Of a DNA stretch of 56,545 nt, positions 4,047-43,214 are shown piece by piece. Within the stretch, counting starts at the first letter, position 1. Every line of letters starts with the position of its first letter. The notes under the pieces were generated by a model. It saw only the letters and a program-made list of their open reading frames with translations. It was not told the DNA's origin and ran no database searches. Origin of the DNA: a virus (Duplodnaviria > Caudoviricetes); the IMG/VR virus record IMGVR_UViG_3300042543_000175, positions 1 through 56,545 of that record; one strand, given 5' to 3'. The translations under genes and the position numbers were made by a program.

Positions 4047-5051
4047 TCAAGTCATATTTACGAGTCGGCGGGTTAGCCAAGGAGCAATTTGCATAACTCC
4101 TTCTTGCCCTGCGTTATACTCTTTTAGTTCGGCATTGAGAAGAAGAATCGCACGATCCATGTAGTATTGGCCGCGCTCTACATCAGCTTTCTCTTCGGCG
4201 TTCAGAGCCATAAGGCCCAGCTTGATGGCTTCCAAGGAATCAGGATAAAGCGGATCATTGTCGCTAATGGCCCAACAATGCTTGCGCTTGAAGATGCCTT
4301 GGACGCTATCCCAATTGCGATCCACTAGATAGCGGCGGTAGCTTATAGCCCGCTCCCCAGCCTCATACTTGGCCAATGTGGTCGCTCCCGCCGATAGGGA
4401 GATAACGCCCGTGGTAGGGGTTTTCTCGACAGAATAGATCTCCTTGAATGTCTGTGATGTGGTCTGGGTTCCGTCTCCAAGGTCAAGACGAATTCCCTCC
4501 ACTCGTTCATTATCAACGTCAGAATAAATTTTATTCCCATTTGAGTCCTTTCCGCGAATCCAGATGTAGCTTCCAGCACATTCAGTCTCGCTGCTAGATA
4601 GGGTAAGTGCTGATGCGGTCTCAATGTCCCGAAAGGTAACAAAGCCTTCACCCATGTCTTGAATCGGGCCGTAGTATTTCTCGTCGGTCTTGCGGATGCC
4701 GCGCCCTTGGGGTAGATACTGATACCATTCGCTTTGGACTGCGTTTGTTTTATATCCAGATTTACCCGCCCGAATACAGGTCTCCAGATGGCGAGGGAGA
4801 GTGATAAACTTATTATCGTTGGCGTCCTCGTAGGCCGTTATTGTTGCTTGTACCAGAGTACCAAGCCATTTACCCTCGCTCAAGACCCTCTCGCAGAAGC
4901 GATTAATATTATTACGGAGTTCGGCGTCCGCATCAAAACCCGCCAGATCGGGAGGATCGGCAACAGGTCGGACGGACGCAGGAATTCTCTCGCAACAAAG
5001 CCCAAGGGAAAGACTCGACATAATTGGCAAAGAAATTACCACCTTCGCCAC
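4047..5051 (-). CDS. Putative tail tubular/head-tail adaptor protein
   Basis: 334-aa ORF upstream of ejection-like genes with a helical C-terminus; synteny inference; start uncertain. Confidence 0.4.
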   Translation of the reverse strand: MAKVVISLPIMSSLSLGLCCERIPASVRPVADPPDLAGFDADAELRNNINRFCERVLSEGKWLGTLVQATITAYEDANDNKFITLPRHLETCIRAGKSGYKTNAVQSEWYQYLPQGRGIRKTDEKYYGPIQDMGEGFVTFRDIETASALTLSSSETECAGSYIWIRGKDSNGNKIYSDVDNERVEGIRLDLGDGTQTTSQTFKEIYSVEKTPTTGVISLSAGATTLAKYEAGERAISYRRYLVDRNWDSVQGIFKRKHCWAISDNDPLYPDSLEAIKLGLMALNAEEKADVERGQYYMDRAILLLNAELKEYNAGQEGVMQIAPWLTRRLVNMT

Positions 5052-8600: not shown

Positions 8601-11150
8601 ATGGCCGAACAACCAGCTTTAAATCGTTCCTACGTTATTTCTTATGCGGCAAATGATCGGGACTTTCCTGTAATAGGATTGAGGCTTGATCCTCGTGTTG
8701 CGGGATATCGGGTTCCAGAAGATCTAAGTCCGCATCCAGACTCCAAGCGGTATCCCAACCATGTCTTTACAGGCTCCAATCCAACCAACGGAGATGAACG
8801 AGTTACCCACGTTTACGAAATTTTGCCCGCTCCTTGGGTTCCGTTCACCCGCTATGATGACGATTTAGGGCCAGTTCAGGGACGGCGGAGGGCGGTTAAA
8901 AATGAAGGACAGCAAGCCAGTTTGTCGTCTGATAAAAAGATATCATATGAAGGGCGGGACGGATCGGCCATTGTTTCTCTAGAAATAGAAGAGATTTGGT
9001 CTATAAAGACCGACGAAGATGAAAACTCTCTATTCCCAATAAAAGATCGGGATTTTTACGATCCAAGACTTGGCGCTGTTAAGGAAAGAAGGCAATTATT
9101 TGTTCCGACAGGGGAAGAAAAAGCATCAATTGAATTTAATGATCCTGTAGTAACACAGATTGGTTATGAAGCGTACAACGAATATCTATCATACAAGGTA
9201 ACAACAACTTACACATTAAACGGCCCAGTTCGCAGAGAGGACGTTTATGATCCAATCAAAGGCCCGATTGAAAGGATTAGTCAGATTGTTTACGATGATG
9301 GAAGTCTTGAGGGATCACTTGTTAATAACGGCGGAATAATTACTCAGACATCTTATCAGCCCATCAATACTTTGGTTGTTGATAAAATTGTTGAAAAATA
9401 TTCCGTAAGCGGCCCCCAATTAATCGGGCAAGCAACTGACAACGAAAAACAACTTGTTACTATAACAACGCAGCGAAAGGCGGCAGATGGATATGTTCCG
9501 CCAAATCCAACAGCAATCAAAACAGTTGAAGTTTCACGCGAAGACGCCGAATCAATAATTGAAAGAATTACTGAAACTCCAGAAATTTTTAGCGCAAAAG
9601 TTTTCTCAACAGAGCGCCCAGATCCGATACCAGAAAAGTTCAGGGTTCTTATTCCGTCTACCACAGAACAGTCAAACATAGAAGGAACTGCAACAACTCC
9701 TATTTTGTCTTCTGGGCAAATATCCAAAAGCGAACAGCAAGTAGATAAGTTTGTAAAGCGTATATCATCAACATCAAGAAATCAAACATTACTTCCAAGA
9801 ACTCTTACACAAAAAACAACTAACAATGATTTGCAACTTGCAAATATTACAGAAACGCTTCAAGGCGGAGACACAACAGAGCAACCAACAGCAAAAAAAA
9901 TCATTCAAAGCGAAGCTCTTGGAGATGGAAACTATGTAGTAAGAAAAACAGAGATTGATAATGTATTTGACTCTAAGCTTTTGTCGGTTCAAAAAACCGA
10001 TCCAATACCTGAAAAATTCAGAATTAATAGCCCTCTCAATAGAACGGAGGAAACAAAAGAACAAACTACTGTTTCTATTCCAGTTTTAGAAGATGGACAA
10101 TTTTTAAAATCAGAACAAAGGCTTACGGCTCACACTGTTCAATCTGTTACACTGCAAAGAGAAGAAAATTACGAACAAATAAATAACGCAGATCTTGACG
10201 AAAGTTGGGGAATTCAACTTCCTTTTGTAGAATATATATCTTCCACTGTTGTAACTGGATCAAATATTGAAGTTCAGGGACTTGGTGATGACAAATATCT
10301 AATCAGGCAATATGACCTAGCCGCATTAGGCTCTATACTTGGAGACTTTTCTATAGTTATTCCTTCATCTGTAGATGTGAATACACCAAGAGTTCTTTCT
10401 GATATTAAAATTGCAGGATGGCAGGAAGAAAAGAACTTGGGGGAAAGTGAATTTGATTCTTCTGGACTTTCAGGATCTTTTGATTCTTTAGCACAAAGAG
10501 ACAATGGATCAATATCTTCAACACTGTCGTTAGTTCCAAAAATTGAAATAATATTTAAAGAATATTGGGGCAATAATATTCCAGCAAATATTCATATATT
10601 CTTTTTGAGAAAATCCAACTTGACGAGCGACTCTATTAAAAGCAGGGTTGGAGCAGTGGGAAATTGGCCAGTGTTCAAACCAGAATCTTTTGTTGGAACA
10701 GTATATGGAATATCCGAAACAAAAAACATTTCTGTTGGAATAGGTAGGGCTATTTCTTTTACTTCTGGAGGTGATACGGGATTCCAGCCAACAAAAGAAT
10801 CTCAAACGGATTATAAAAAATCATTAATTCCTGTTATTATAAATATACCAACATGTTTGCGACCACAAAAAACTCTTAATCTTTCAAAAACATTAAGTAA
10901 TGATTCTGGATCAATCGAATTAAGCTATGAAGGATTGGCCACATCTAACGGAGAAATATTGCCTGCCGTAAATCAAACAAAAACACTTACACACAGTATT
11001 ACAATTTCAGACACATTAACAATCGGTTCAACGCAACAAACAGATGTTCCAAAGTCTGGAAAATATATAATCAGCACATCTGTGGAGCCATACAAATTTG
11101 ATTGGTTTTTGGTTAGGGCTGTTGTTTTTGATGCTTCTGTTTTTGCTTGA
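8601..11150 (+). CDS. Large putative virion/tail protein with internal repeats
   Basis: 849 aa, beta-rich; repeated module DPIPEKFR (x2) and ALGDGNY/GLGDDKY. Confidence 0.55.
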   Translation: MAEQPALNRSYVISYAANDRDFPVIGLRLDPRVAGYRVPEDLSPHPDSKRYPNHVFTGSNPTNGDERVTHVYEILPAPWVPFTRYDDDLGPVQGRRRAVKNEGQQASLSSDKKISYEGRDGSAIVSLEIEEIWSIKTDEDENSLFPIKDRDFYDPRLGAVKERRQLFVPTGEEKASIEFNDPVVTQIGYEAYNEYLSYKVTTTYTLNGPVRREDVYDPIKGPIERISQIVYDDGSLEGSLVNNGGIITQTSYQPINTLVVDKIVEKYSVSGPQLIGQATDNEKQLVTITTQRKAADGYVPPNPTAIKTVEVSREDAESIIERITETPEIFSAKVFSTERPDPIPEKFRVLIPSTTEQSNIEGTATTPILSSGQISKSEQQVDKFVKRISSTSRNQTLLPRTLTQKTTNNDLQLANITETLQGGDTTEQPTAKKIIQSEALGDGNYVVRKTEIDNVFDSKLLSVQKTDPIPEKFRINSPLNRTEETKEQTTVSIPVLEDGQFLKSEQRLTAHTVQSVTLQREENYEQINNADLDESWGIQLPFVEYISSTVVTGSNIEVQGLGDDKYLIRQYDLAALGSILGDFSIVIPSSVDVNTPRVLSDIKIAGWQEEKNLGESEFDSSGLSGSFDSLAQRDNGSISSTLSLVPKIEIIFKEYWGNNIPANIHIFFLRKSNLTSDSIKSRVGAVGNWPVFKPESFVGTVYGISETKNISVGIGRAISFTSGGDTGFQPTKESQTDYKKSLIPVIINIPTCLRPQKTLNLSKTLSNDSGSIELSYEGLATSNGEILPAVNQTKTLTHSITISDTLTIGSTQQTDVPKSGKYIISTSVEPYKFDWFLVRAVVFDASVFA

Positions 11151-16865: not shown

Positions 16866-16929
16866 TGGTGTGTGTTTTGGTTTAGTTGAAATGGATAGAC
16901 CTAGCGTCTATCAAAATTGTTCAATCTTT

Positions 16930-21666: not shown

Positions 21667-22986
21667 TTAGCGCCGACCAAGAATCGTCTTGCCAAAGTTC
21701 ATCAGACTATCAACATCTTCATCATCGTCGCTAACATCAGTCTCGGTGGCCTTGCCCAAGCTGGGGGTGGCCCCGACTAGACCTTCTAGCTGGGTTTGGA
21801 GTTCTTTGATCTTAGCATCTTTTTCGGCGCTTAATTTTTCGGTCTGGGCCGTATAGTGATTAATGGCGCTCTCAAGGAAGGGGACTACTGCTGCCCGTGC
21901 GAGGATGGCACTGCGGTCTTCGACGCTCAAACGATCCAGATTGGTCTCGGCAGCATTCTTCTTGGCTGCGCGGATGTGGCTATTCCAATCATCCTGCCCG
22001 TCGATTTCTTGGAGGAAGCTGTAGCGGTCTTCCAGATTTGTCCATGTCTTGGCTGTAAAGGCTTTCTGGAGGCGGAGGTCATTCTCAATAAACTCCTGCT
22101 CGGATTGGGCCTTACGAGCATTTTCGGCCTCTGCGAGGGATTCCGCCTCTTTCTGGAACCGCTCATGGTATTGGGCCAACTCATGGTATTTATCGGCCAT
22201 CTTGACGATGGACAACTGCTCCATGCGCTTGAAGTCCGCCGTCAGGTCTTCCAGAGAGTCGATACGCTTGCGGGCATCTGGCTCTGTTAGGGCTTGCCAA
22301 AGTTTGGAGAAGTCGGCGTCATTGGCTTCTGCAATAGCCTTCAAATCACCTTGGAGGCCACTCAGGGGCTTTTTAATTGTTTCGACGTATTCGGGGCTTC
22401 TTTCAAAGTTTGCGGTCTTTAGCTCGCGATTAAGCTCTGCCATGCGAGTTTTGTAAGCCTCAAGCTCTTCTTGGAGGGTCTTGACCGTTTCCCCTTCATA
22501 CTTACCAACCTTCTCTTTGGTGGCTTCCAGTTCGGCCTTCAGGCGATCCCGCTCTTCGCGGGCTTTTTTCATTTCACCTTTGATCTCTTTCCAACTTGAG
22601 ATTCCTTTCTCGGAATCATCTCCTTCAGGTTTATCGGAAACAGGCTTGTCGGAGAAGTGGGGATTGATCGGAAGATCATCCTCTGAAGTGTTCTCATTTG
22701 ATTTCTCTTCGGTCTTCTCGGAAGAGACTTCTTTGGTAATATCTGCAACCTTTTTCTCTACCTCTTCCTTGGTGGACTTGGATTTGGTTTCCGCCTTAAC
22801 GGGAGTTTTTTTCTCCGCTTTGGGAGTTTCCTCTTTTGGGGTTTCGGCTGCGGGTTGCTCTTGCTCTTGTGTTTCGGGCGTTTCATTGGGTTGAGCTTCT
22901 GGGGCTGGTTCGACATTAGCCGTTCCAAAAACAGTTCCTGCAAAGTCCGCATCACCCGTAAGGGCAGAGTTGAGTATATTAGCCAT
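21667..22986 (-). CDS. Putative capsid scaffolding protein
   Basis: Disordered E/K/P N-terminus plus long coiled coil, between portal and capsid genes. Confidence 0.65.
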   Translation of the reverse strand: MANILNSALTGDADFAGTVFGTANVEPAPEAQPNETPETQEQEQPAAETPKEETPKAEKKTPVKAETKSKSTKEEVEKKVADITKEVSSEKTEEKSNENTSEDDLPINPHFSDKPVSDKPEGDDSEKGISSWKEIKGEMKKAREERDRLKAELEATKEKVGKYEGETVKTLQEELEAYKTRMAELNRELKTANFERSPEYVETIKKPLSGLQGDLKAIAEANDADFSKLWQALTEPDARKRIDSLEDLTADFKRMEQLSIVKMADKYHELAQYHERFQKEAESLAEAENARKAQSEQEFIENDLRLQKAFTAKTWTNLEDRYSFLQEIDGQDDWNSHIRAAKKNAAETNLDRLSVEDRSAILARAAVVPFLESAINHYTAQTEKLSAEKDAKIKELQTQLEGLVGATPSLGKATETDVSDDDEDVDSLMNFGKTILGRR

Positions 22987-23711: not shown

Positions 23712-25988
23712 TTATGCCTGTGCCGCCATAGGGGGTCGGCCTGCGGGTTTGGCGGTTTTCTCCAGAATAGAACTGCGGGTCTTGAGGTCATTGAGAGCCA
23801 TCTGCTGACGGATTGTCTCCATCTTCTGTTGATGTGTCTCTTGGTTCATCATCCGCTTTTCCTGCATTTCGGCCAACTTTAGTTGCGCTTTTTGCATTTC
23901 CATCTCCATCTTAGGATCGATTTGCCCCTGCGACTGCTCTCCAGCTTGAATGGCCTGTTCTTGCGCTTGGCTTTGTTGGGCCATCATGCGGTTGATTACT
24001 TGTTGTTCTAGCTCATCAATGTAAGCCGTAAGATTCTGGAGTTGGCGCTTGAGTTCGCGAACCTCCTGCGCCCTAAAGCTGTTATTAGAAAACAAGACAA
24101 GATGTTCTGTAACGTGGTCGGCGGCAGGACGAAGAATTTGCATTGCTTGCTCATCGGCCATCTGTTGCTGACGATGAGCTTCAATAATCTCGGCAATCAT
24201 CGGGATGTGAGCCTCAATATGAACAGCATGGTTTTGACTGTCGTGAACCATCTGCTGGATACCTTGACGAAGATTTCCGTTTTCCAGATTGGCAATATCG
24301 TAATCGATGGTACGGCGCGGGCCTTTATCGGAGACAAAGAGATTAACTTTTTGCCAACCCACACCAGAGATGCCAGCGATGACAGAACGAAGAGTGTTTT
24401 CTTTGCCCTTCTCATCCATCAAGGAATAAAGCTCCATGAGTTGCTTGGATGCCATTTCGGTCATTACGGGACTTCCATCACCCATGGCGCGGAAGGCTGT
24501 GACTTTAAGAAACTGGCGCATACGCTCGACACTCACGCCCCTGCGGGCGCAACGCCTGCGAAACTCAAGAGCAAGCTGTCCTCCCTTATCATTGGCGGTT
24601 AGAAGCGGATTTACAGCCCTGCGGTATTGCTCGGTCAAAAGCTTGTTATACGGGGTGTAAAAGAGTTCCAGTGCTGCGGCGTTCAGTGTGGATTCTTGGC
24701 GAGCCTGTTGAACAACCTCTGTAGCAGAACGGGCCTGACCATCTGATCCTGTTTGGCGTGAGCGGTAACTACCTGTGTTATTTTGCAACACTTGGCTCAT
24801 CAGGTTGTAAACAGGAAGACCTTGAGTGGCAATCGAAGGAGGTTGAAGTTGAATCGGGGTTAGTCCGCTTGGTATGAACGTATAAGGCCCGACTTCGATA
24901 TACTGGAAGTCTTGGATTGCTTCGGCGTCACCCTGCAATTGTATGAGTCCTGCTGTGATGGCAGCTTGTGCTGATTGACAAAGAACGCGATTGGAAATCT
25001 GGATCTGGTTGTAAATCTTTTGTTTGAGTCCGCGAATTGTGTGGAAGGTTCCTTGTCCCACTCCATAGGTGAAGATAACGAAGCACTGATTCACGTTTCC
25101 ATAACGGCTGTAACGCTCATAGAGAAAATCCGAAGAATCGCGGGAACCGATAAGTTGAGTGAACTTGCCATCAAATTCGCGGTTGTAGCCGTAGATTAGT
25201 TGGGCGCGGTGGTAGGCTGACTCACCAGCATAAAGGTCATTCTCTTTAATTTCGCGCTCAAAGTCTTCCCAGTGGGCAGTGTAGTTCTTCCATTGATCGC
25301 GCTTGGTAGAAGCTTTCCAAATAGCTTGTTTAACCGAATTAAGATTCCAGCCCAGTTCTTTTGCGGCTTTAGGATTGCGGATATAACGATAAAGTTCGCT
25401 TACGCTCATGGAGCGTTGGACGATAGCCACTTCGATAGACTCATCTGATACTTTTGTATCACGGGCTACTTTGAAGTCTTTGAGACCGCAAGGCTCCCAG
25501 AAGATAGAACGTTCGTCTGGCCACATAGCTACTCCGACCCCGTCACCCACAAACTCGCGGGAAAGAAGTTGCATGTTGTAGGCATGATCACTCCACTCTT
25601 TAAGCATCCAGTCAAACTCTTCAGAGATAATTTCGGAATCTTCATTGGAGTCCCCTTGATAGGAGTCCATAACGACATTAGCAATGCGAGGAACCCCGTT
25701 CTGGAGTTCAATATATGGGGCCAAAGCCGCTTCCATGATGGCATTAGCTTCCCCGAAGTTGGCGTTGACCACATGGGTCAGTCCTTTGGATTTTAATTCT
25801 TCGGCATCGTAGGGGGCTTCTCCATTGACTAGGGCTTGCGCCCGCGCCCGAAGATATGCCGCATCCTCATCTTGTTCGATATACTTGTCTGCAATAGAGA
25901 CAAGGCTATCAGATGATTTGATGCGTTTTTTCGGGGGACTACCACTTTCTGGTAGATTTTCCAATTCTGCGTTGCCGTTAGAAGCCAT
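23712..25988 (-). CDS. Portal protein (P22-like architecture)
   Basis: 758 aa; RSATEV motif, Q/M-rich helical C-terminus, upstream of scaffold/capsid. Confidence 0.75.
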   Translation of the reverse strand: MASNGNAELENLPESGSPPKKRIKSSDSLVSIADKYIEQDEDAAYLRARAQALVNGEAPYDAEELKSKGLTHVVNANFGEANAIMEAALAPYIELQNGVPRIANVVMDSYQGDSNEDSEIISEEFDWMLKEWSDHAYNMQLLSREFVGDGVGVAMWPDERSIFWEPCGLKDFKVARDTKVSDESIEVAIVQRSMSVSELYRYIRNPKAAKELGWNLNSVKQAIWKASTKRDQWKNYTAHWEDFEREIKENDLYAGESAYHRAQLIYGYNREFDGKFTQLIGSRDSSDFLYERYSRYGNVNQCFVIFTYGVGQGTFHTIRGLKQKIYNQIQISNRVLCQSAQAAITAGLIQLQGDAEAIQDFQYIEVGPYTFIPSGLTPIQLQPPSIATQGLPVYNLMSQVLQNNTGSYRSRQTGSDGQARSATEVVQQARQESTLNAAALELFYTPYNKLLTEQYRRAVNPLLTANDKGGQLALEFRRRCARRGVSVERMRQFLKVTAFRAMGDGSPVMTEMASKQLMELYSLMDEKGKENTLRSVIAGISGVGWQKVNLFVSDKGPRRTIDYDIANLENGNLRQGIQQMVHDSQNHAVHIEAHIPMIAEIIEAHRQQQMADEQAMQILRPAADHVTEHLVLFSNNSFRAQEVRELKRQLQNLTAYIDELEQQVINRMMAQQSQAQEQAIQAGEQSQGQIDPKMEMEMQKAQLKLAEMQEKRMMNQETHQQKMETIRQQMALNDLKTRSSILEKTAKPAGRPPMAAQA

Positions 25989-26015: not shown

Positions 26016-27041
26016 CTACTGTGTCCAGCCAGTTATGATCCCGTTGGATATGGTCACGGAGTTCGTGGTGTAGTTAGTTCCGTTGTAGGAGACAAAAGTG
26101 CGGTTGGTGGTGATGCCACCGCCGAGGCCGAGGTTGGTTCTGGTTGTATCGGCGTTTGTCGTGGCGTTGAAGCTGATTGCGCCGTCGATTCTGGTATTTC
26201 CTCCGAGTTGAACTCGCTGTGCTGCTGATGATGAAAACGCTCCTCCGATGATCACGCCATTAGTAACAGCCTGTAAGATATGATAAGACGGTGAATGGTT
26301 TCCGTATATTTCAAACTTGTTCTGTTTTGCATAAAAGATAGTGCTGTTGGCAGAGTTAACAAATTGAAGTTCTGCATAACTACCACCGTTTGTTGCCATG
26401 TTTGCAATAACCGCTGTGCCGCCTGCGCCAGCATTATTGAATTCTACCTTTAATGCGCTTGCCGCATTCCAACCTAGATTGGTTACACCTATGGTCAACG
26501 GGTAAACTGAATACCCCCAACCAAGAGCCGAGTTTGTCTGACTGCCAACAAACATCAATGGACGGGTTCTTTGTCCAGAGATATCCGTCACATCAAAATA
26601 CATTTCCGCGACAGTTCGCGCAGGGTTATTTGTATTTTGTTCGGAATTGTATTCGTTCTCCAACACTAACGCCACTGAGCCAAAGTTGGTGTTTTTGCGT
26701 GTAAAATCATTTCCATCAGCAGTTGGCTGAATGTTTTGCCCCCACGCGCCCTGTGACCAATTGGTTTGATTGATACCAAACCACAGATTTGTCGCATGGC
26801 GACGAGAAAATGCCAACATAGATCCATCTCCAACCCCATCTGAAGTTTGCCAAAACAATGTTGGAATATTGGTGGTGTCAGATCCTTTGATCTGAATGTT
26901 TTTTAAGAACGTGAGCGTGTTCGTGCCGCTATAAACCACCTGACCGTTGGTTGTGTTATACCCCAGACTCTTGATCGTCTGGCCATAGACCCCGACTCCC
27001 AGAATCCCGAATAAAAGTGTAAGTGCTAGTTTCTTCATCAT
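26016..27041 (-). CDS. Tail fibre/spike-like protein with signal-peptide-like N-terminus
   Basis: T/N/G-rich beta sequence, TRTNLGLG motif, C-terminal VTISNGIIT. Confidence 0.55.
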   Translation of the reverse strand: MMKKLALTLLFGILGVGVYGQTIKSLGYNTTNGQVVYSGTNTLTFLKNIQIKGSDTTNIPTLFWQTSDGVGDGSMLAFSRRHATNLWFGINQTNWSQGAWGQNIQPTADGNDFTRKNTNFGSVALVLENEYNSEQNTNNPARTVAEMYFDVTDISGQRTRPLMFVGSQTNSALGWGYSVYPLTIGVTNLGWNAASALKVEFNNAGAGGTAVIANMATNGGSYAELQFVNSANSTIFYAKQNKFEIYGNHSPSYHILQAVTNGVIIGGAFSSSAAQRVQLGGNTRIDGAISFNATTNADTTRTNLGLGGGITTNRTFVSYNGTNYTTNSVTISNGIITGWTQ

Positions 27042-30940: not shown

Positions 30941-31305
30941 CGGGCAATCTCCTGATAGACCTTGGCCTTGCCAGTTGCGAACGCGATATAGGTGTAGCCA
31001 GAATAAAGTTCGATTTCGTAGACATTGTCTCCTGCTGTTAAATTTGCTGCTTGTGTGGCAGTTATTTCTATTTCGATGGTTCCAGCGGTTCCGCCAAGCG
31101 TAATCCCGCTTCCAGAGGTCAATGTGAGCAATGTAGCACTATCCTTGGCGCACTCACGAATAACCATATTTGCCCCATAGCCAGTAAGATTGACTGGGAC
31201 GTTAGACTTTCCCTTGCAAGACTTGGTCAGATAACGAAACTTCGCCGTCCATGTTTTTCCTTGGACGATTTCAATATCTCTCTCAAGTCTCCAGTAGTTG
31301 GTCAT
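30937..31305 (-). CDS. Fibre adaptor / Ig-like baseplate-type protein (paralogue 1)
   Basis: QGKTW...PVNLTGY.A.M.IR...VYEIEL...G pattern. Confidence 0.65.
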
Positions 31306-33809
31306 TGATGGGCTGGAATATAAAAAACATTAGTTCCAACACGAATTTGCAGCCATCTAGCTGGTGTATTCGGGGTCACAGGTGTCGCGTTGGTGTGGTT
31401 GGTGGAGAAGTCTACAAACCCATTAACCACAAGATTGGTGGTTGCCGTCACAGTGCCAGTAGCTGTCAGAGTTCCAGATGCCGTTATATTGCTGAATGTG
31501 ACATCGTTGGTTTGGCCAAGGCCGAGGTTGGTGCGGGTGGCTGATGCATTTGAAACACTTATTGTGTTAGCGTTTAAATTCCCAAGATCTCCTTGAGTAG
31601 TTTCTACGCGAACATTTGTAGAAGAACTTTGTAAAAACATATCATCACCACGAATTCCCAATATAGCAGATTTGTGCAACGCGGAATTTGTGTAGCTTTG
31701 TAAATAAACAGCACCGTCATTTGTGTTTGTCGTTTTAAACTGAAACGATCCAGAAATCGGTGAATCGACAACAAAAGCGGAAAAATTTGTTCCAGACTTA
31801 AATCCTGAAGCGGCGACATTGCTGAATGTGACATCGTTGGTTGATCCGAGTGCGAGGTTTGTGCGGGTGATAGCAGCTTCATTAGTGTTTGCAAAATTAA
31901 TAGATGGAAAATTATAAATATACCCAGTTCCATCAAAATCTATAATTCCCTCATCTAAAATAAGAATCTTCCCAAACTGATTATAATTTGTTGAGTTAGG
32001 AACAATAATATTTCCAAATGTTACAAAGTTGGTGCTACCCAACCCCAAATTGGTTCTGCTTGCCGCCGCATTGGCTGTTGCGTTTGTTCCAGAAAATCGA
32101 ATTGGTTCCACAAAACTAATGTTGTGATAAAACACCCAATCTCCATTTTCGTAAATAAACTTAACAGCCTCATCAAGATTATTGATAGTGATAAAATTGT
32201 TTGTTTCACCCAACCTCCTAATTGCTGTTGTGGAATTAGTTAATCCCTGATGGGTTACGGTAACAGTGTCACCAGCTAGTGTTGCCGCATTGGTGGGAAG
32301 TGTAATGGTATTGGTAACTCCAGAAACATTGGTAGACAAAGAATATACGTAGACATTTCTTCCGTTGGTTGTGGCATTTGTCGAATTGGTATTCGGAGAA
32401 AATGTCTGGACAATGGTTAGCAAATTGGAAGAAATGGGGGCTAATTGCCAAAAATTTGTCGGGCTTACCACAGATCCATTGGAGTCCACGGAAACCAATC
32501 TAGTTCCAGTATTGCTGTTTGTTAGCGCAGACCATCCAAGACCGAGGTTGGTGCGGGTGATGGCGGCGTTGGTGGCGCTGTTAAAAGAAATGGGCCTCCA
32601 CGCCGTAATTAAATCGTTGGTAAAATATAAATAATCAGAACCATCAGAATAAATTATACTATCACCACTAAAATAAATTGCTTCAGTCTGAATTGCTCTA
32701 AACGTAACATCATTCGTCGCCCCCAACCCAATCGCCGTCCTAAAATTCGTGACATTGGTGTTGGTGAGCCATGTGGCTCCGAGGCCGAGGTTGGTGCGAT
32801 TGACCCCAGCAAATGCGCTAATCGTAAAACTATTGGTGTCTTCGATTAGCTCAATGCTTTGAAAGTTTGGTTCACTTGTCGCACCCAAACCCAAATTGGT
32901 TCTGCTTGCCGCCGCATTGGCTGTTGCGTTTGTTCCAGAGAAATAAACAGGATTGGCAAATGCTTGGTTTTCCAAAAGACTCCAAGATGTTGTGTAAATA
33001 AATTTTGCAGCTTCTTGGAAATTACTGATGCTTATTAGGTTTGTTATTTCTCCCTGCTGCCTAATAGCTGTTGTCGAATTGGTTAATCCGCGATGAACAA
33101 CTGTTGCAATGTCACCAGAAGATGCGTTGGTCGGAAGCTGGATTGTGCTAACGACTCCAGAAATATTTGTTCTGCTGCTATAGACATAAAGATCTCTGCT
33201 ATTTGTAACGGTGTTTGTTTCGCTTGAAACGAGATTTGTAAAGCTTTGAACTACTGTTGAAATTGGAGAATTTGCCCAAAAATTTGTCGGACTCACAACA
33301 ACTCCGCTTGTGTTTACCAAAACTAGATTGGTATTAGTTCCAAATAACGCAGTTTGAAATGTAGAAGCACTGGAATTAGTCAGCCCAGACCAAGGAAGAC
33401 CAAGATTTGTTCTGGCTGTTTCGGCATTGGTTGCCCCCGTTCCTCCAGAAATAATTCCAAGAACTCCACTTAAATTTGTAAGCTCAATTGTTGGAAGGTT
33501 TGAGCTTGATATTTGTCCAACAAGATTTGTGGAATTCAAATTAGTTAAAGATCCACCATTACTTAAAGCAAGATTACTAAGAGATAAGCTAGAAGGCTGA
33601 AAGGCTGTTGCGGGGTTGGTAGCAGCGGTTCCAAGACCAAGTCCTGCGCGGGCATTGGATGCATCAACGCTCCAGAAGTTAGTCGGCTGAACCACTGTGT
33701 TATTAGTTCCAACAAGAACATTGCGAGTTTGCCCGAAGCCCGAAACAACCAAAGCTCCTCCGATAATAAGTGAGAGAATAAGTTTCATTTTTACATTAAT
33801 CGCTTCCAA
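31302..33809 (-). CDS. Repeat-rich tail fibre-like protein (start probably 33788)
   Basis: Many RTNLGLG repeats, a duplicated domain, Thr/Asn-rich, signal-peptide-like N-terminus. Confidence 0.7.
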   Translation of the reverse strand: MEAINVKMKLILSLIIGGALVVSGFGQTRNVLVGTNNTVVQPTNFWSVDASNARAGLGLGTAATNPATAFQPSSLSLSNLALSNGGSLTNLNSTNLVGQISSSNLPTIELTNLSGVLGIISGGTGATNAETARTNLGLPWSGLTNSSASTFQTALFGTNTNLVLVNTSGVVVSPTNFWANSPISTVVQSFTNLVSSETNTVTNSRDLYVYSSRTNISGVVSTIQLPTNASSGDIATVVHRGLTNSTTAIRQQGEITNLISISNFQEAAKFIYTTSWSLLENQAFANPVYFSGTNATANAAASRTNLGLGATSEPNFQSIELIEDTNSFTISAFAGVNRTNLGLGATWLTNTNVTNFRTAIGLGATNDVTFRAIQTEAIYFSGDSIIYSDGSDYLYFTNDLITAWRPISFNSATNAAITRTNLGLGWSALTNSNTGTRLVSVDSNGSVVSPTNFWQLAPISSNLLTIVQTFSPNTNSTNATTNGRNVYVYSLSTNVSGVTNTITLPTNAATLAGDTVTVTHQGLTNSTTAIRRLGETNNFITINNLDEAVKFIYENGDWVFYHNISFVEPIRFSGTNATANAAASRTNLGLGSTNFVTFGNIIVPNSTNYNQFGKILILDEGIIDFDGTGYIYNFPSINFANTNEAAITRTNLALGSTNDVTFSNVAASGFKSGTNFSAFVVDSPISGSFQFKTTNTNDGAVYLQSYTNSALHKSAILGIRGDDMFLQSSSTNVRVETTQGDLGNLNANTISVSNASATRTNLGLGQTNDVTFSNITASGTLTATGTVTATTNLVVNGFVDFSTNHTNATPVTPNTPARWLQIRVGTNVFYIPAHQ
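32044..32939. repeat. 50-bp exact direct repeat (32044-32093 and 32890-32939) within the fibre gene
   Basis: CCCAAATTGGTTCTGCTTGCCGCCGCATTGGCTGTTGCGTTTGTTCCAGA occurs twice. Confidence 0.9.
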
Positions 33810-34491: not shown

Positions 34492-36333
34492 CTACCATTT
34501 TGTCTTCAGAGTCAAGGACTGTTTAAGTTTCTTGAAGCTTTCTTTGTTGAGCCGTTTCTTTTCCTCAATCGCCTCGCTGCCAGCCATAGCTCCGAATATC
34601 TTGCGGGCGACAAACAATCCTACTGCAAAAGAGTCAAATAAGTCAGGAGACTTTCCTATCCGCTTTTTCATGTCGGTTTTAGACTCAATAATAATCTTCC
34701 GAGTCCTACGCACATACTTTCTCTGAGTCATCTCCCATGCCAGATCGGGGGTTATTCCTTTGAGTTGTTCGCATTCTAGAAAGTAGCGAGCGGCAAAGCA
34801 GAGTTCGCTTGCCATATTGTGAAACAATTCTTTGCCAACTTGGGGTTTTCCCGTGACTTCGTTCCTCATGGCGTATTGGGCGCTGACGGGCAAATCGGAT
34901 GCTGCCCCTGCGAAACTCACTGCATGCCAACCCTTTAGGAGTTCTCGTTCTCCGATTGACCAGAAGATACCACCCGCCGAAGCATCCACCCCCATCCATT
35001 GATTTGGTATTCCCAATTTAAGGGATAGGTCGTGGATTTGCTGGATCATCTCGTATTGGAAGTCCTCTTGAGATCCCGCCCTTCGGTTGAGGACATACTG
35101 TTTCTCGACAGCTATCGCCCACTTGCCGCTGATCAGCCTCCCATACTTCATGTGTGTGAAAACAAAGCGGTCTCCTCCTTCGGTGTAGCTAGGGTCAATT
35201 CCAGCTATATCTTTCGGGGTTCCATCCCAGATGGGTTTATCCAATGCCCCGTGACGAGCTAGTAGGATATCTGACACAATCGTGGAATCATCGGCGTCTG
35301 CGGGAGGCCAGAAGCCCCGAAACTTTCTCCAATACTGCGGGTTTAGCTCTCCGAGTTCCTTTTTGGCCAATGCCACATCGTTTGGCTTGGGTAGGAATGG
35401 GTAACGGAGTCCCTTGCCAGCATCGAAGGATTGTTGGTTGGGGTTGTCGTTTTCTGAATCAAACCTGATACAAACCCCCTCAATACCAGCTACTCGTATC
35501 TTCCAATTCGGGGTTTGCTCGTCCACACTCATCCACCCCTTGATGGGTTCGCAGAACTTCCCGTGGGGGTCAAAGATGGAGGATGGGTTGCCAGCGCCCA
35601 CAATATAGAGTTCTTGCGCTCCTTTGAACCCCCACACCGCCTCGTTAATTATAGAAGCCGAACAATCTTGTAACTCATCTGCTATCAACACGATACGACG
35701 ATTTTTCTTACCTTGAAGTCGCTTCTGGGCATCATCCTTGTATTCGTCACCCGCTGCTAGGAGCATGATGGAAGATGCATCACTCACACCTGTTTCGGGG
35801 TCGATAATAGCCCCCTCTTCATCCGAGAGCTTGATGATGTCCATGGACTCAATGAGTCGTCCAGAGGCTAGTCCCATGTTTCGGGCTTCGCGGTACATCT
35901 TGACCAGTGCCGCCCAGATTCGCTGCTTTGCGTCTATTTTTGACGTAGAGACCACAATGGTCATCGTATTGATTGGGTCGCAGAACCAGTTTACAAGAGC
36001 AAACGCCGCCATCCCGTAGGATTTACCAGAGTCCGTTCCGCCAGCGAGACCAGTAACACTTCGGACAAATCGGTTACCCGTAGCCTCGTCCACCTCGTAG
36101 ATTTGGTTGCAGAATGCCTGTGCGCTCAGTTCAGCCCACCTATGCCATTGGAACGTTGGCCAGATAGCAGAGACAATATTGCGATAATGGCGGGCCTTTC
36201 CAAGTCCTCCATCTTCTGGAGTAAGTCCCTGCAAAAAGGCGTCCATCTCAATACGAATTGGAGTAATCGCCTGTCCGTCTTTGGGTAACCACAACCTCCC
36301 GTATTTCTCTATCCCTTGATCAACTGTTGCCAT
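34492..36333 (-). CDS. terL: Terminase large subunit
   Basis: Walker A GGTDSGKS, Walker B LIADE, GAGNP motif, nuclease AGIDP..GGD and SPDLFD. Confidence 0.9.
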   Translation of the reverse strand: MATVDQGIEKYGRLWLPKDGQAITPIRIEMDAFLQGLTPEDGGLGKARHYRNIVSAIWPTFQWHRWAELSAQAFCNQIYEVDEATGNRFVRSVTGLAGGTDSGKSYGMAAFALVNWFCDPINTMTIVVSTSKIDAKQRIWAALVKMYREARNMGLASGRLIESMDIIKLSDEEGAIIDPETGVSDASSIMLLAAGDEYKDDAQKRLQGKKNRRIVLIADELQDCSASIINEAVWGFKGAQELYIVGAGNPSSIFDPHGKFCEPIKGWMSVDEQTPNWKIRVAGIEGVCIRFDSENDNPNQQSFDAGKGLRYPFLPKPNDVALAKKELGELNPQYWRKFRGFWPPADADDSTIVSDILLARHGALDKPIWDGTPKDIAGIDPSYTEGGDRFVFTHMKYGRLISGKWAIAVEKQYVLNRRAGSQEDFQYEMIQQIHDLSLKLGIPNQWMGVDASAGGIFWSIGERELLKGWHAVSFAGAASDLPVSAQYAMRNEVTGKPQVGKELFHNMASELCFAARYFLECEQLKGITPDLAWEMTQRKYVRRTRKIIIESKTDMKKRIGKSPDLFDSFAVGLFVARKIFGAMAGSEAIEEKKRLNKESFKKLKQSLTLKTKW

Positions 36334-41128: not shown

Positions 41129-41745
41129 AGTTCCTCCTCGCTTTCGCTGACCCAGCGGCTTCCGACATGCTCGCAACTGAATTCTTGGCTGAAGACTTTC
41201 CAGTCGGGCTTGATGGGAAATTTCTTGGCAATAAACGATCCGCCATCCATCCACAGCACACGATTATTTGGTTGAATGAAATATTGCCCATCGCCCGCAA
41301 ATACATGGCCGCATTTATGCCCAGCGGCCATTTCTCCGTAGCCGCTAGTATATTGAGGGCCGAAACACCAGTCCAAGGTGAACATATACTTAGCCGCCTC
41401 AAAAGATTTGTTCTTGAGCATGATGTTTGCCGCACGATTCTTGCAGTAGTCTAGGATATTGACCGAGCAATAGTAGCTCATAGAGTCCCAGAGTTGTATC
41501 CAGTCTAACGGATAAAACGTCCCTCCAACATCATCAGTGTGGAGATAGTGGATCGGGACTCTGGCGTGTTGGCTTCCGTATTCCGTCATCACGCTAAACA
41601 TCCCGCAACGTTGTGGAATTGACGTATAGGCAAATACCTCGACTAGCTGCCTTTCGCGATTGACGTTGGGTTCCAAATCATAAAAGAATCCCTCGTCTAC
41701 AAAGGCAAAGAATGTCGGTATATTGACGTTGAGATAATTGCTCAT
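41098..41745 (-). CDS. Conserved phage hypothetical protein
   Basis: LQLWD-like IQLWD, YMFTLDW, HKCGH, QPNNR motifs. Confidence 0.7.
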   Translation of the reverse strand: MSNYLNVNIPTFFAFVDEGFFYDLEPNVNRERQLVEVFAYTSIPQRCGMFSVMTEYGSQHARVPIHYLHTDDVGGTFYPLDWIQLWDSMSYYCSVNILDYCKNRAANIMLKNKSFEAAKYMFTLDWCFGPQYTSGYGEMAAGHKCGHVFAGDGQYFIQPNNRVLWMDGGSFIAKKFPIKPDWKVFSQEFSCEHVGSRWVSESEEELWFYDFKEQG

Positions 41746-42023
41746 TTGTCGGCAATCTGTTGAAGGAGTCGCGTCTGACGGCGGAGTTCTTCAAGCTGAT
41801 GGCTTGCCGCAATCTCCGCGCTTAAACGGTCGTTTGATTCTTTTAACTCTGCATTGATCCGCCTCATGGTCTGAAGAAGGGTATCCTTTGGTTGTGGGGA
41901 ATCAACAGATCCGTTGATAACTTGAATACGGCCCGAATCCAAATCAAAGACTGTACCCGAAAAGCTACCGTCTTGTGCCTGAATATTTGTAGCTAGTGTT
42001 AATAACAGTAGTAGTTTTTTCAT
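41742..42023 (-). CDS. Putative secreted protein
   Basis: MKKLLLLLTLA..AQ signal peptide. Confidence 0.6.
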   Translation of the reverse strand: MKKLLLLLTLATNIQAQDGSFSGTVFDLDSGRIQVINGSVDSPQPKDTLLQTMRRINAELKESNDRLSAEIAASHQLEELRRQTRLLQQIADK

Positions 42024-42032
42024 AAAAGAGAT

Positions 42033-42112
42033 TGGAGGCAGGGTGGCGCGGACTTCATTGGCCCCCCGACCTTTGAAGCTTTCGCATTTTCATGCTGGGT
42101 CTCCCCACCTCC
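42033..42112 (-). ncRNA. Candidate 80-nt structured RNA
   Basis: 10-bp closing stem GGAGGUGGGG/CCCUGCCUCC plus A, internal GACC/GGUC stem and GCAU-GAAA-AUGC hairpin. Confidence 0.5.
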
Positions 42113-42117
42113 AAAAG

Positions 42118-42183
42118 TGGTGGAGGAGTCGGCATTGCAGCCGAGTCCGCGCATTAAATGGCGCGTCGAACCTATTCTCCCCC
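42118..42183 (-). ncRNA. Minimal tmRNA-like RNA (tRNA-like domain only, 66 nt)
   Basis: GGGGGAG-AAUAGGUUCGAC-GCGC(CAUUUAAU)GCGC-GGAC-UCGGC(UGCAAU)GCCGA-CUCCUCC-ACCA; G3.U70 wobble, encoded CCA. Confidence 0.75.
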
Positions 42184-42254
42184 TTAAAGTTGTCATGGAG
42201 TAATAGACCACAGCCGCTTCGCGGCGTTCAATATTTTTTCTTTTTTTTCTTTGG

Positions 42255-42752
42255 GGGTATTCGGCGGGCTAAAGCCGTGCGCCCGCCTATATAGCGGCTC
42301 TCTTTCGCTTGAACCCCGAACGCCGCCGTCATTGGATTAATAATTCCTTGAGCTAGATCCGACCGATTGACTACACCTCGCCCCCGCAGGGGCAAAGGCA
42401 TAGTCAAAATTGGATTCTCATTCCTATGAGTGAGTCCTCCGCTTTATTCCACAGATTGCGATCTAGGCTCCGAAGCCGCTAGTAGACCTTCAAACAACCG
42501 CAATCGACCTCCGAGGGTATTATCCCTCGCGCTTACTCTGTTGGCTGACACAATTTTTGTATATTTTATGTGTCAGGCTTGAAAGAAATACTTATATCTT
42601 TTTCTTTCAAAAACCAGAGATTCCCACGCCGCAATGTGTTCAGGCTATGGGACGGATGGCTGATCCGTAAGTGCGGCGGTTTTATCCTTGCATACCTCGT
42701 TACGGGGTTTAGTGGCGTATGTCGCGCCCACTTTGCGCTTGTCCTTCCAGAC
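42255..42752 (-). ncRNA. Candidate ~500-nt highly structured RNA
   Basis: At least 8 inverted repeats in an ORF-poor region downstream of a consensus-like promoter. Confidence 0.5.
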
Positions 42753-42758
42753 ATGCGG

Positions 42759-42787
42759 AGGCTACGACACGTTCAAAATTAAGTCAA
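42759..42787 (-). promoter_or_regulatory. sigma70-type promoter
   Basis: TTGACT-17-TAGCCT. Confidence 0.6.
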
Positions 42788-42789
42788 GA

Positions 42790-42868
42790 AAAGAAAAAGG
42801 GTGCGGCTCCGAAGCGAGGTCTGGAAGACAAGCGCAACATTTTTGGAACCGCACCCAGATGCAAGGAT
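42790..42868 (-). ncRNA. Candidate antisense sRNA with built-in terminator
   Basis: 12-bp stem GGGUGCGGUUCC/GGAGCCGCACCC followed by UUUUUCUUUU; loop complementary to 42733-42752 transcript. Confidence 0.6.
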
Positions 42869-42874
42869 CGACGC

Positions 42875-42903
42875 AGAGTAACGCCAGTGTTGTAGAGTGT
42901 CAA
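42875..42903 (-). promoter_or_regulatory. sigma70-type promoter
   Basis: TTGACA-17-TACTCT. Confidence 0.65.
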
Positions 42904-42923
42904 CAAGAGAGTAATATGTTTCT

Positions 42924-43214
42924 ATGGATAAAGAATCCTATAGATCCTACTTGAGAACGCCTTATTGGAAGGAAGTGAGCCGTCTTGTGAAAAAACGTTT
43001 TGGCTGGAGATGTGGGGTTTGCAACAGTCCCCTAGAACTCCAAGCCCACCACCGCACCTACGAACACCGAGGGGACGAACTCAACCATCTGGATGATCTG
43101 ATCTGCCTCTGCAAGCTCTGCCACAAATTGTTCCATAAAGAACAGAGGAAAGCCCGTAAACCACAGAGGGCGCAGAAACGAAAGTCTCCACGCCCCCGAA
43201 ATATTAATATTTGA
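42924..43214 (+). CDS. HNH endonuclease
   Basis: YLRTPYW...CGVC..LQAHHRTY...DLICLCKLCH. Confidence 0.85.
   Translation: MDKESYRSYLRTPYWKEVSRLVKKRFGWRCGVCNSPLELQAHHRTYEHRGDELNHLDDLICLCKLCHKLFHKEQRKARKPQRAQKRKSPRPRNINI

What the first reader, a model, noticed from the sequence alone, without database searches (positions are those of the whole stretch)
42118..42183. 66-nt 'mini-tmRNA': complete tRNA-like domain with no mRNA-like domain or tag ORF
Seen: the minus strand reads GGGGGAG AAUAGGUUCGAC GCGC CAUUUAAU GCGC GGAC UCGGC UGCAAU GCCGA CUCCUCC ACCA. This gives a 7-bp acceptor stem with G3.U70, discriminator A, encoded CCA, an unpaired GGUUCGAC loop instead of a D-stem, a GAC linker and a 5-bp T-stem with a 6-nt loop (one nt short). 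Established: these features define the tmRNA tRNA-like domain, which AlaRS charges and SmpB binds. Here helix 2 is closed by an 8-nt loop where ~270 nt of pseudoknots and tag ORF normally sit. Inference: it may be an SmpB decoy that blocks trans-translation, a tag-free ribosome-rescue RNA, or a decoy for tRNA/tmRNA-targeting defence nucleases.
Basis: partly seen in the sequence, partly recalled or inferred. Interest (0 to 1): 0.88.

Follow-up and report, generated by a model that had tools for sequence, protein, structure and literature searches.

The report
Phage tag-less mini-tmRNA gene
This lake-water phage carries a real 66-base gene for only the alanine-accepting, tRNA-like end of the bacterial ribosome-rescue RNA (tmRNA); the type is already known from mycobacteriophage DS6A, and it probably interferes with the host's rescue-and-tagging system.

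Summary
Window 42118-42183 (minus strand) reads as a complete tmRNA tRNA-like domain (TLD) whose helix 2 is capped by an 8-nt loop, with no tag ORF or pseudoknots. It is not a one-off deletion remnant. A covariance model built from it finds 14 distinct variants of 63-108 nt in phage and metagenome contigs; these keep the fold through compensatory changes.

The link to tmRNA is transitive. Two longer variants pass Rfam's tmRNA threshold and a 68-nt match scores E=7e-14. The window copy itself is missed by ARAGORN and Rfam.

The gene is always the first unit after a conserved promoter-like motif. It occupies a swappable slot that in sister phages is empty or holds other unknown structured RNAs.

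The kind is already published: the 'TLD only' tmRNA of mycobacteriophage DS6A, reported to inhibit tmRNA (PMC4131195, PMC11915505). This scan has found it before on other phage DNA. I therefore file it as a new member of a known kind.

The most likely function is titration of host SmpB and interference with trans-translation. That is inferred, not shown. Expression evidence is only a weak hint.

The parts
42118..42183 (-). TLD-only mini-tmRNA gene, 66 nt
   Evidence: Sequence; fold; CM R1 self-hit of 98.4 bits and 13 further distinct homologues.
42177..42183 (-). Acceptor stem 5' strand GGGGGAG (G3 of the G3.U70 pair)
   Evidence: Invariant in 14 of 14 variants although no search pattern forced this strand.
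42165..42176 (-). D-loop analogue AAUAGGUUCGAC, with no D stem
   Evidence: The same segment in relatives aligns to Rfam tmRNA consensus positions 8-20.
42149..42164 (-). Helix 2 stub (GCGC/GCGC) capped by the 8-nt loop CAUUUAAU, where pseudoknots and tag ORF normally lie
   Evidence: All 4 pairs show changes on both sides across variants. The cap is 5-8 nt in the 63-70-nt variants as aligned, and about 55-60 nt are inserted in the two long ones.
42145..42148 (-). GGAC linker. With the GAC of the D-loop analogue it corresponds to the conserved base of tmRNA helix 2a.
   Evidence: Compared with the Rfam RF00023 consensus and structure lines printed (my reading of that alignment).
42129..42144 (-). 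T arm: UCGGC / UGCAAU / GCCGA (5 bp, 6-nt loop)
   Evidence: The closing pair occurs as U-A, C-G or G-C among variants. The loop is 6 nt in 11 of 14 variants and 7 nt in 3 of 14.
42118..42128 (-). Acceptor 3' strand CUCCUCC plus discriminator A and encoded CCA
   Evidence: ACCA is encoded in 9 of 14 variants; the others read AACU, ACGG, AAAU, AGAU and AAAA.
42203..42231 (-). Conserved promoter-like motif TTGAAC-N17-GTCTAT, about 20 nt upstream of the gene
   Evidence: 2 matches in the window against 0.01 expected. Conserved upstream of the slot in relatives. It is not a sigma-70 consensus by the simple scan.
42034..42112 (-). Conserved structured leader RNA directly downstream. It is a separate unit, present with or without the mini-tmRNA.
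   Evidence: Found next to the gene in 38 of 80 related loci. The alignment shows paired changes. No Rfam match.
41742..42023 (-). First ORF of the leftward operon (93 aa). A 215-aa phrog_3704 gene and DnaB lie further downstream in the same operon.

Best explanation
The element is a phage gene for a tag-less, TLD-only mini-tmRNA (identity about 0.9). The proposed mechanism below is inferred.

1. It is transcribed as the first unit after a phage promoter-like motif.
2. It is cut out like a tRNA, by RNase P at G1 and by 3' trimming at or after the encoded CCA.
3. Host AlaRS charges it through G3.U70 and A73.
4. It binds host SmpB; the phage record encodes no SmpB.
5. Because it has no resume codon or tag ORF, it competes with host tmRNA for SmpB, EF-Tu and stalled ribosomes.

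The result would be to damp trans-translation and ssrA tagging during infection. Its position in a swappable accessory slot fits an optional host-takeover or counter-defence gene rather than a core function.
For: Anatomy.

Homology chain to tmRNA. CM R1, built from three variants, finds 14 distinct variants at E <= 2.6e-5. Of these, L112 (107 nt) and L115 (108 nt) score 69.8 and 59.9 bits with Rfam tmRNA RF00023, whose gathering score is 47. L129 scores 41.7 bits, E=6.9e-14, in a full-span alignment with 312 model positions skipped; this is the same variant as L091.

Selection on the fold. 99.5% of cells are paired. 5 of 16 pairs change on both sides. No shuffle of 500 reaches the covariation score, and slid controls pair in only 43-58% of cells. 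Variation concentrates in the cap loop.

Same architecture as the published DS6A TLD-only RNA, which I read myself at JN698994 28478-28560.

Published function for the kind. [quoted passage not shown] PMC11915505 states that the DS6A form inhibited endogenous tmRNA in E. coli (passage).

No SmpB in the record.

First position after the promoter-like motif in every context inspected.

Accessory status. Of the 38 related loci (out of 80) where the leader was located, the slot holds the TLD in 4, other RNA modules in 25 and nothing in 9.
Against: The window copy itself fails ARAGORN and every Rfam threshold, and an identical copy in L130 gave no tmRNA hit at E <= 1. Family assignment is therefore transitive.

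Its T loop is 6 nt (UGCAAU) rather than the canonical 7-nt UUCGAnn. Whether it still docks on the D-loop analogue and on SmpB is unknown.

The acceptor stem never varies, partly because my search patterns fixed its 3' strand. It therefore gives no covariation evidence. The alignment used for counting was fitted to the model.

No alanylation, SmpB binding, processing or expression is shown. The host is unknown.

The primary paper for the inhibition result (Mao et al. 2009) is not held. I rely on two citing papers.

An RNA-library contig runs from well upstream of the supposed promoter into a relative's mini-TLD. If that contig is RNA, the promoter reading is weakened.
Confidence: 0.55

Rival explanations
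1. Productive tag-free ribosome rescue. Ala-TLD with SmpB enters stalled ribosomes and accepts the nascent chain. The peptidyl-TLD is then released without a degradation tag, so ribosomes are kept free for phage translation while phage or host proteins escape tagging.
For: CDS-less tmRNAs are conserved in jakobid mitochondria together with SmpB, and occur in Mallomonadaceae plastids at about 65 bp, where a rescue role is suggested (PMC11915505 passage). A complete alanine-identity set and encoded CCA are present. ACCA is encoded in 9 of 14 variants.
Against: There is no known route to terminate or release after transfer without a resume codon. The only experiment reported for the phage form showed inhibition (PMC4131195 and PMC11915505 passages). 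Nothing here separates rescue from inhibition.
Confidence: 0.2
2. Mainly a cis-acting tRNA-like processing module. It serves as an RNase P and 3'-processing entry site that defines the 5' end of the downstream RNA array and operon mRNA; any free RNA is a by-product.
For: It is always the first unit after the promoter-like motif and is followed directly by other structured modules or the leader. One relative (L115) heads a five-tRNA array.
Against: Sister phages run the same leader and operon with an empty slot (9 of the 38 loci with the leader), so processing by this unit is not needed. A simple RNase P site would not need the tmRNA-specific GGNUUCGAC and GGAC motifs, which are kept across variants.
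Confidence: 0.12
3. A decoy for host defence factors that recognise or cut tRNA or tmRNA, or that carry SmpB-like RNA-binding domains. One of several swappable decoy RNAs in this slot.
For: The slot is polymorphic, with alternative structured RNAs in near-identical phages, a pattern typical of accessory counter-defence loci. SmpB-like domains occur in predicted RNA-targeting CoCoNuT restriction systems (PMC10542128 passage).
Against: No defence system is linked to it and no host is known. This is purely contextual inference.
Confidence: 0.08
4. A non-functional remnant of a full-length phage tmRNA, or an attP copy of a host ssrA end, or a tRNA-Ala that has lost its D arm.
For: More distant relatives carry full-length one-piece tmRNAs near the same 215-aa gene (7 loci by ARAGORN; 3 confirmed by Rfam). 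Phages are known to integrate at ssrA.
Against: 14 distinct variants keep the fold with compensatory changes. The exact 5' 19-mer and 3' 27-mer occur in IMG/VR only in mini forms. Both halves of the TLD are present, and no integrase or resolvase is in the record. The cap loop is 5-8 nt as aligned, with no fixed anticodon-like position, and ARAGORN calls no tRNA.
Confidence: 0.05

Closest known systems
'TLD only' (CDS-less) tmRNA of Mycobacterium phage DS6A (tmRNA Website tmID 11587; Hudson, Lau & Williams 2014, PMC4131195; Mao et al. 2009, not held)
   Same: Phage-borne. Complete acceptor stem with G3.U70, a GGNNCGAC D-loop analogue, helix 2 closed after a few pairs, a GSAC linker, a T arm and discriminator A. 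No tag ORF or pseudoknots (DS6A read).
   Different: DS6A is about 83 nt with a longer helix 2 and inner hairpin, a canonical 7-nt UUCGAUU T loop and no encoded CCA. The window copy is 66 nt with a 6-nt UGCAAU T loop and encoded CCA. There is no detectable sequence relationship beyond the shared motifs: CM R1 gave no DS6A hit at E <= 10. The host lineages differ, an actinobacterium against an unknown lake bacterium.
CDS-less organellar tmRNAs (jakobid mitochondria; Mallomonadaceae plastids, about 65 bp; PMC11915505)
   Same: A natural TLD-only RNA of about the same size.
   Different: They are organellar, co-occur with a dedicated SmpB and are presumed to work in rescue. The Rfam search of the region listed no mt-tmRNA match at E <= 10.
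Two-piece (permuted) alpha-type tmRNAs, as in SAR11 and in marine or aquatic phages such as Melnitz (PMC9004378)
   Same: Metagenome two-piece tmRNAs share the acceptor stem GGGGGAG/CUCCUCC, the GGAC-UCGGN...NCCGA T arm and a UGCAAUU-type T loop.
   Different: Those genes are circularly permuted, 300-450 nt long and carry tags such as ANDNFAPVDYALAA. The window gene is in standard order, is one piece and has no coding part.
Full-length one-piece phage tmRNAs in more distant relatives of this phage group (L062-L065, L074, L079, L080)
   Same: They lie in the neighbourhood of the same 215-aa gene and have GGGGG-start acceptor stems.
   Different: They are about 354 nt (436 nt as called in L080), with tags such as GTNQLALAA. 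The acceptor stem differs (GGGGGCG/CGCCUCC) and the phages are AT-rich.

Membership tests
tmRNA (Rfam RF00023), tRNA-like domain | 7-bp acceptor stem with G3.U70, discriminator A73 and a 3' CCA | tested here: met
   G.U is at pair 3 in 14 of 14 variants. CCA is encoded in the window copy and in 9 of 14 variants.
tmRNA (Rfam RF00023), tRNA-like domain | D-loop analogue GGNUUCGAC without a D stem, and a GAC...GGAC base of helix 2a | tested here: met
   Relatives align over these positions to the RF00023 consensus.
tmRNA (Rfam RF00023), tRNA-like domain | T arm of 5 bp with a 7-nt UUCGAnn loop | tested here: inconclusive
   The 5-bp stem is present. The loop is 6 nt (UGCAAU) in the window copy. 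3 of 14 variants have the canonical 7-nt UUCGAUN and 2 have UUCGAU.
tmRNA (Rfam RF00023), tRNA-like domain | Score at or above the curated gathering threshold (47 bits) | tested here: not met
   The window copy gives no RF00023 hit even at E <= 10. The feature is met only transitively: L112 scores 69.8 and L115 59.9 bits, and L129 scores 41.7 bits, E=6.9e-14. All three are CM R1 homologues or the same variant as one.
Full tmRNA (functional trans-translation RNA) | mRNA-like domain with resume codon, tag ORF and pseudoknots | tested here: not met
   Only 8 nt lie between the two strands of helix 2. ARAGORN finds no tmRNA.
TLD-only / CDS-less tmRNA (DS6A type) | Complete TLD with helix 2 closed by a short cap, about 110 nt or less in total, no tag ORF | tested here: met
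   Compared with DS6A. Family sizes are 63-108 nt.
TLD-only / CDS-less tmRNA (DS6A type) | Inhibits endogenous tmRNA, binds SmpB, is alanylated | not testable with these tools
   Known only from literature statements for the DS6A-like molecule.
Two-piece (permuted) tmRNA (RF04321 / RF01849) | Acceptor piece ending in CCA, followed by an intervening segment and a coding piece that starts GGGG...UUCGAC and carries a tag ORF | tested here: not met
   Only 13.6 bits, E=1.1. The downstream unit is the independent leader, present in empty-slot phages too. ARAGORN finds nothing.
D-armless tRNA-Ala | Anticodon stem with a 7-nt loop carrying an alanine anticodon at a fixed position | tested here: not met
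   The loop is 8 nt here and 5-8 nt among the 63-70-nt variants as aligned, with unrelated sequences. ARAGORN finds nothing.
attP copy of the ssrA 3' end | Only the 3' part of ssrA is present, next to an integrase | tested here: not met
   The 5' half is present too. No Phage_integrase or Resolvase match in the record, though the record is estimated only 78% complete.

The most novel reading that the evidence does not exclude
The promoter-proximal slot is a hot-swappable 'RNA moron' site. Near-identical lake phages carry there, as alternatives or in series, a TLD-only tmRNA mimic, a roughly 58-nt hairpin RNA with a conserved internal loop that has potential tandem G.A pairs (module B), larger structured RNAs (modules C and D), or nothing. 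On this reading the mini-tmRNA is one member of a phage arsenal of small decoy or effector RNAs aimed at host translation-quality-control or defence proteins. Its sequence is drawn from the same pool as alpha-type two-piece tmRNAs and re-joined into a one-piece minimal form.
Probability: 0.25. Interest if true: 0.75.

Novelty: new member of a known kind. Interest (0 to 1): 0.45.

Why it matters
TLD-only tmRNAs are invisible to ARAGORN and, at this size, to Rfam. They are therefore absent from phage annotation, and only one phage case (DS6A) is in print in the papers I could read.

This lineage adds three things:
- a very compact form (63-70 nt);
- natural presence and absence alleles in otherwise near-identical phages, which are ready-made controls for testing what the RNA does;
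- sequence ties to two-piece alpha-type tmRNAs.

If the RNA blocks or redirects trans-translation, it is a phage strategy against a near-universal bacterial quality-control system. It would also be a natural minimal SmpB and AlaRS ligand.

Tried and rejected
1. Similarity searches of cultured phages found nothing useful. BLASTN of the 4.5-kb region against 50,697 phage records gave no match. The 66-mer gave one chance-level 23-nt hit. tblastn with the large terminase gave one hit at 26% identity. So there is no cultured relative and no host clue.

2. Search for a full-length parent. The exact 5' 19-mer and 3' 27-mer occur in IMG/VR only in mini forms. A T-arm plus acceptor pattern scanned over GTDB species genomes gave 9 hits. 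None was called as tmRNA by ARAGORN, and CM scores were at most 19.4 bits. I treat those as chance.

3. CM R1 gave no hit on DS6A at E <= 10. The model is too sequence-specific, so the DS6A TLD was located by coordinate instead.

4. Expression. 20 lake-water DNA runs hold at least half of the sampled words of the stretch. Four RNA-labelled runs, one of them probably DNA, hold only 5-6% of the words, and all are kept as contigs. When laid, contigs of two RNA libraries (X21, X24) end at 42158/42159. Their loose ends read as relatives' mini-TLD variants when reverse-complemented. One 679-nt X24 contig also spans the upstream non-coding region. Contigs cannot show transcription, ends or strand, and DNA carry-over is possible. 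I count this only as a weak hint. Parts of the stretch without cover carry no weight.

5. The simple sigma-70 and terminator scan found nothing in 41700-43000. The promoter reading rests on a conserved, twice-occurring motif only.

6. Modules B, C and D and the leader have no Rfam family. I could not name them.

7. The origin of the two-piece tmRNAs that share the stems is not settled. L131 and L146 neighbours gave weak or no NCBIfam hits, and BLASTN of one against the phage records found only a 38-nt match.

8. Mao et al. 2009 is not held. Supplements of papers were not consulted, and they may list further phage TLD-only cases.

9. No structure, complex or protein-homology jobs were run, because they do not bear on an RNA gene.

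Full report
**What is there.** The window is a 56.5-kb IMG/VR virus record, estimated 78% complete. It has a 7-bp acceptor stem GGGGGAG/CUCCUCC with G3.U70, and a 12-nt unpaired segment ending in GGUUCGAC. A 4-5-bp stem (GCGC/GCGC) is capped by CAUUUAAU. Then come GGAC, a 5-bp T stem with the 6-nt loop UGCAAU, discriminator A and an encoded CCA. The fold is much more stable than shuffles: -29.3 kcal/mol, z = -4.1, 0 of 200 shuffles as good. A post-hoc feature pattern matches once in the window and never in 100 shuffles. Standard detectors miss it. ARAGORN finds no gene and Rfam at gathering finds no hit. At E <= 10 there is only a 13.6-bit match of the T arm, acceptor strand and CCA to the permuted-tmRNA model.

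**Is it really tmRNA-derived?** The link is transitive but solid.
- I built a covariance model (R1) from three variants of the element.
- I searched loci fetched through the neighbouring 215-aa gene and through DNA patterns.
- This gave 14 distinct variants of 63-108 nt at E <= 2.6e-5.
- Two of them, L112 (107 nt) and L115 (108 nt), score 69.8 and 59.9 bits with Rfam tmRNA RF00023, whose gathering score is 47.
- The L129 copy, the same variant as L091, scores 41.7 bits, E=6.9e-14. Its alignment spans the model end to end and skips 312 internal positions.
- The window-type sequence, identical in L130, does not reach E <= 1 in that search. I attribute this to its non-canonical T loop.

The Rfam consensus lines also show that the GAC...GGAC segments flanking the short stem correspond to the conserved base of tmRNA helix 2a.

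**Is it under selection, or a remnant?** On the 14 distinct variants, 99.5% of cells form standard pairs. All four helix-2 pairs and the closing T-stem pair (U-A, C-G or G-C) change on both sides. No shuffle of 500 reaches the observed covariation score, and sliding the partners drops pairing to 43-58%.

Three caveats apply:
- The alignment was fitted to the model.
- The sequences are related.
- The acceptor 3' strand and part of the T stem were fixed by my search patterns, so the invariant acceptor stem says nothing.

Variation concentrates in the cap. It is 5-8 nt with unrelated sequences in the 63-70-nt variants as aligned, and holds about 55-60 extra nt in the two long variants.

ACCA is encoded in 9 of 14 variants. 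The T loop is 6 nt in 11 of 14 and a canonical 7-nt UUCGAUN in 3 of 14. The exact 5' 19-mer and 3' 27-mer of the window copy occur in IMG/VR only in mini forms. No integrase or resolvase is in the record, and both TLD halves are present, so an attP remnant is unlikely.

**Context.** The gene lies at the head of the leftward operon, which holds a 93-aa ORF, a 215-aa phrog_3704 gene and DnaB. It faces an HNH gene on the other strand. About 20 nt upstream is a conserved motif, TTGAAC-N17-GTCTAT. This motif occurs twice in the window against 0.01 expected, although it is not a sigma-70 consensus by the simple scan. Directly downstream is a conserved structured leader of about 80 nt.

Of 80 related loci, the leader could be located in 38. 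In those, the slot between motif and leader holds (alignments):

| Slot content | Loci |
|---|---|
| Mini-tmRNA | 4 |
| Module B alone, an unrelated hairpin RNA of about 58 nt | 14 |
| Module B plus larger structured modules C and D | 10 |
| Module C alone | 1 |
| Nothing (15 nt) | 9 |

In empty-slot phages the flanks join precisely where the element would be (L025 and L035). Where the mini-tmRNA occurs together with other modules it is always first (L004/L084, L085, L092, L047, L052). It therefore behaves as an optional cassette, not as a core gene.

**Relation to full-length tmRNAs.** More distant, AT-rich relatives carry one-piece tmRNAs of about 354 nt near the same 215-aa gene. Their tags include GTNQLALAA, GNNQLALAA and GETQLALAA (7 loci by ARAGORN; 3 confirmed by Rfam; sequences). 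Their acceptor stems differ.

Scanning metagenome contigs for the T-arm plus acceptor pattern gave 46 hits:
- 15 are standard-order TLD-only genes.
- At least 8 are two-piece, permuted, alpha-type tmRNAs confirmed by ARAGORN or Rfam; 14 have that layout.
- The rest include 13 GC-rich, probably chance matches, and a few left unclassified.

The two-piece tmRNAs carry tags such as ANDNFAPVDYALAA. Their coding piece starts GGGGGAGAGUUAGGAU(U)CGAC and their acceptor piece ends GGAC-UCGGG-UGCAAUU-CCCGA-CUCCUCC-ACCA. So the window's unusual UGCAAU T loop and its acceptor stem are those of this two-piece lineage.

The same pattern found no tmRNA in GTDB species genomes. Two-piece alpha-type tmRNAs are known from marine and aquatic phages (PMC9004378 passages). 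Whether these contigs are phage or cellular was not settled.

**What is known.** Hudson, Lau and Williams (PMC4131195; passages read) list 'Mycobacterium phage DS6A (TLD only)'. They state that a similar molecule strongly inhibits tmRNA, perhaps by titrating SmpB, citing Mao et al. 2009, which is not held. The 2025 tmRNA database paper (PMC11915505; passage) adds CDS-less forms in jakobid mitochondria and in Mallomonadaceae plastids (about 65 bp). It repeats that the DS6A form inhibited endogenous tmRNA in E. coli.

I read the DS6A element at JN698994 28478-28560. It has the same architecture with a longer helix 2, a canonical T loop and no encoded CCA. Earlier follow-ups of this scan reached the same classification for other phages, so the scan has found this kind before on other DNA.

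**Mechanism.**
- Shown: the sequence features for alanine identity (G3.U70, A73, CCA), the tmRNA-specific D-loop analogue and helix-2a base, a conserved fold, an accessory position, and no phage SmpB.
- Inferred: processing by RNase P and 3' trimming, charging by AlaRS, binding of host SmpB, and competition with host tmRNA for SmpB, EF-Tu and stalled ribosomes. Lacking a resume codon, the RNA would lower tagging and rescue.

I give identity about 0.9 and this mechanism about 0.55. The rivals are tag-free rescue (0.2), a cis processing module (0.12), a decoy for defence factors (0.08), and a remnant, attP copy or tRNA (0.05).

**Expression.** The phage region is held by 20 lake-water DNA runs. 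Contigs from two RNA libraries carry relatives' mini-TLDs, and one joins the upstream non-coding region to it. Contigs cannot prove transcription, and DNA may be present in these libraries. If the joining contig is RNA, transcription would start upstream of my putative promoter.

**Verdict.** This is a genuine, conserved, very compact TLD-only tmRNA gene. It is a new member of a kind already in print, so novelty is moderate. The added value lies in the swappable-slot context with natural empty alleles and companion unknown RNAs, and in the tie to two-piece alpha-type tmRNAs.

Noticed in passing
window 42034-42112 (-): Conserved structured leader of about 80 nt between the mini-tmRNA and the first ORF. 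It has a 10-bp closing stem (GGAGGUGGGG/CCCUGCCUCC), a GAAA-capped hairpin and a second hairpin. It was located in 38 of 80 related loci, with or without the mini-tmRNA, and shows paired changes (for example CUUCA/UGAAG against CUUUG/CAAAG in L035). No Rfam match.
   Followed up: partly
L005:517-574, L085:963-1020, L014:1065-1122, L043:3561-3618, L056:3574-3631 (not in the window): 'Module B' is a hairpin RNA of about 58 nt (79-85 nt with a longer inner arm). It occupies the same slot in sister phages or follows the mini-tmRNA. An invariant internal loop (YUGAGGG opposite AGCGACCUGA, with potential tandem G.A pairs) sits between two covarying stems. 10 of 19 predicted pairs change on both sides. 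No Rfam family.
   Followed up: partly
L021:3200-3631; L092:377-700: Two further conserved structured units lie in the same leader array. Module C is about 165-200 nt, closed by GCUGGGC.../...CCCAGCA. Module D is about 80 nt and begins AGCAGGAGCAGGAUGGG. Neither has an Rfam match at E <= 1.
   Followed up: partly
window 16895-16924 (-) and 42203-42231 (-): The promoter-like motif TTGAAC-N17/18-GTCTAT occurs twice in the window (0.01 expected), each time upstream of a minus-strand gene block. The same motif recurs before other operons in relatives.
   Followed up: partly
L062-L065, L074, L079, L080: More distant AT-rich relatives carry full-length one-piece tmRNA genes with the tags GTNQLALAA, GNNQLALAA, GETQLALAA and GNTQLALAA, some next to tRNA genes. 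The L080 call (436 nt) overlaps an ORF-like stretch and was not confirmed by Rfam.
   Followed up: partly
L107, L116, L117, L125, L131, L133, L146, L147 (metagenome contigs): Two-piece (permuted) alpha-type tmRNAs share the mini-tmRNA's acceptor stem and T arm. The same pattern found none in GTDB species genomes. The L131 neighbours look phage-like, with a weak DnaB-like hit, a SleB-like hydrolase and several unknowns.
   Followed up: partly
L115:5182-5289: A 108-nt TLD-type gene (RF00023, 59.9 bits) lies directly ahead of a five-tRNA array (Leu, Arg, Lys, Asp, Glu). It is an intermediate-size form embedded in a phage tRNA cluster.
   Followed up: no
window 42255-42752: The long non-coding region upstream of the mini-tmRNA is conserved among relatives. 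Contigs from RNA libraries cover it, including one 679-nt contig at word depth 68.6.
   Followed up: partly
L012:2950-3635: In one relative the slot holds a small ORF-bearing insert of about 450 nt, followed by module C, instead of module B or the mini-tmRNA.
   Followed up: no
window, large ORFs (1-1716, 1720-2964, 2930-4042, 4047-5051, 8601-11150, 21667-22986, 23712-25988, 26016-27041, 31302-33809): 9 of 10 large ORFs tested have no PHROG family at E <= 1e-5; only the large terminase (34492-36333) matches. No cultured phage relative was found. This is a poorly charted lake-water phage lineage.
   Followed up: no
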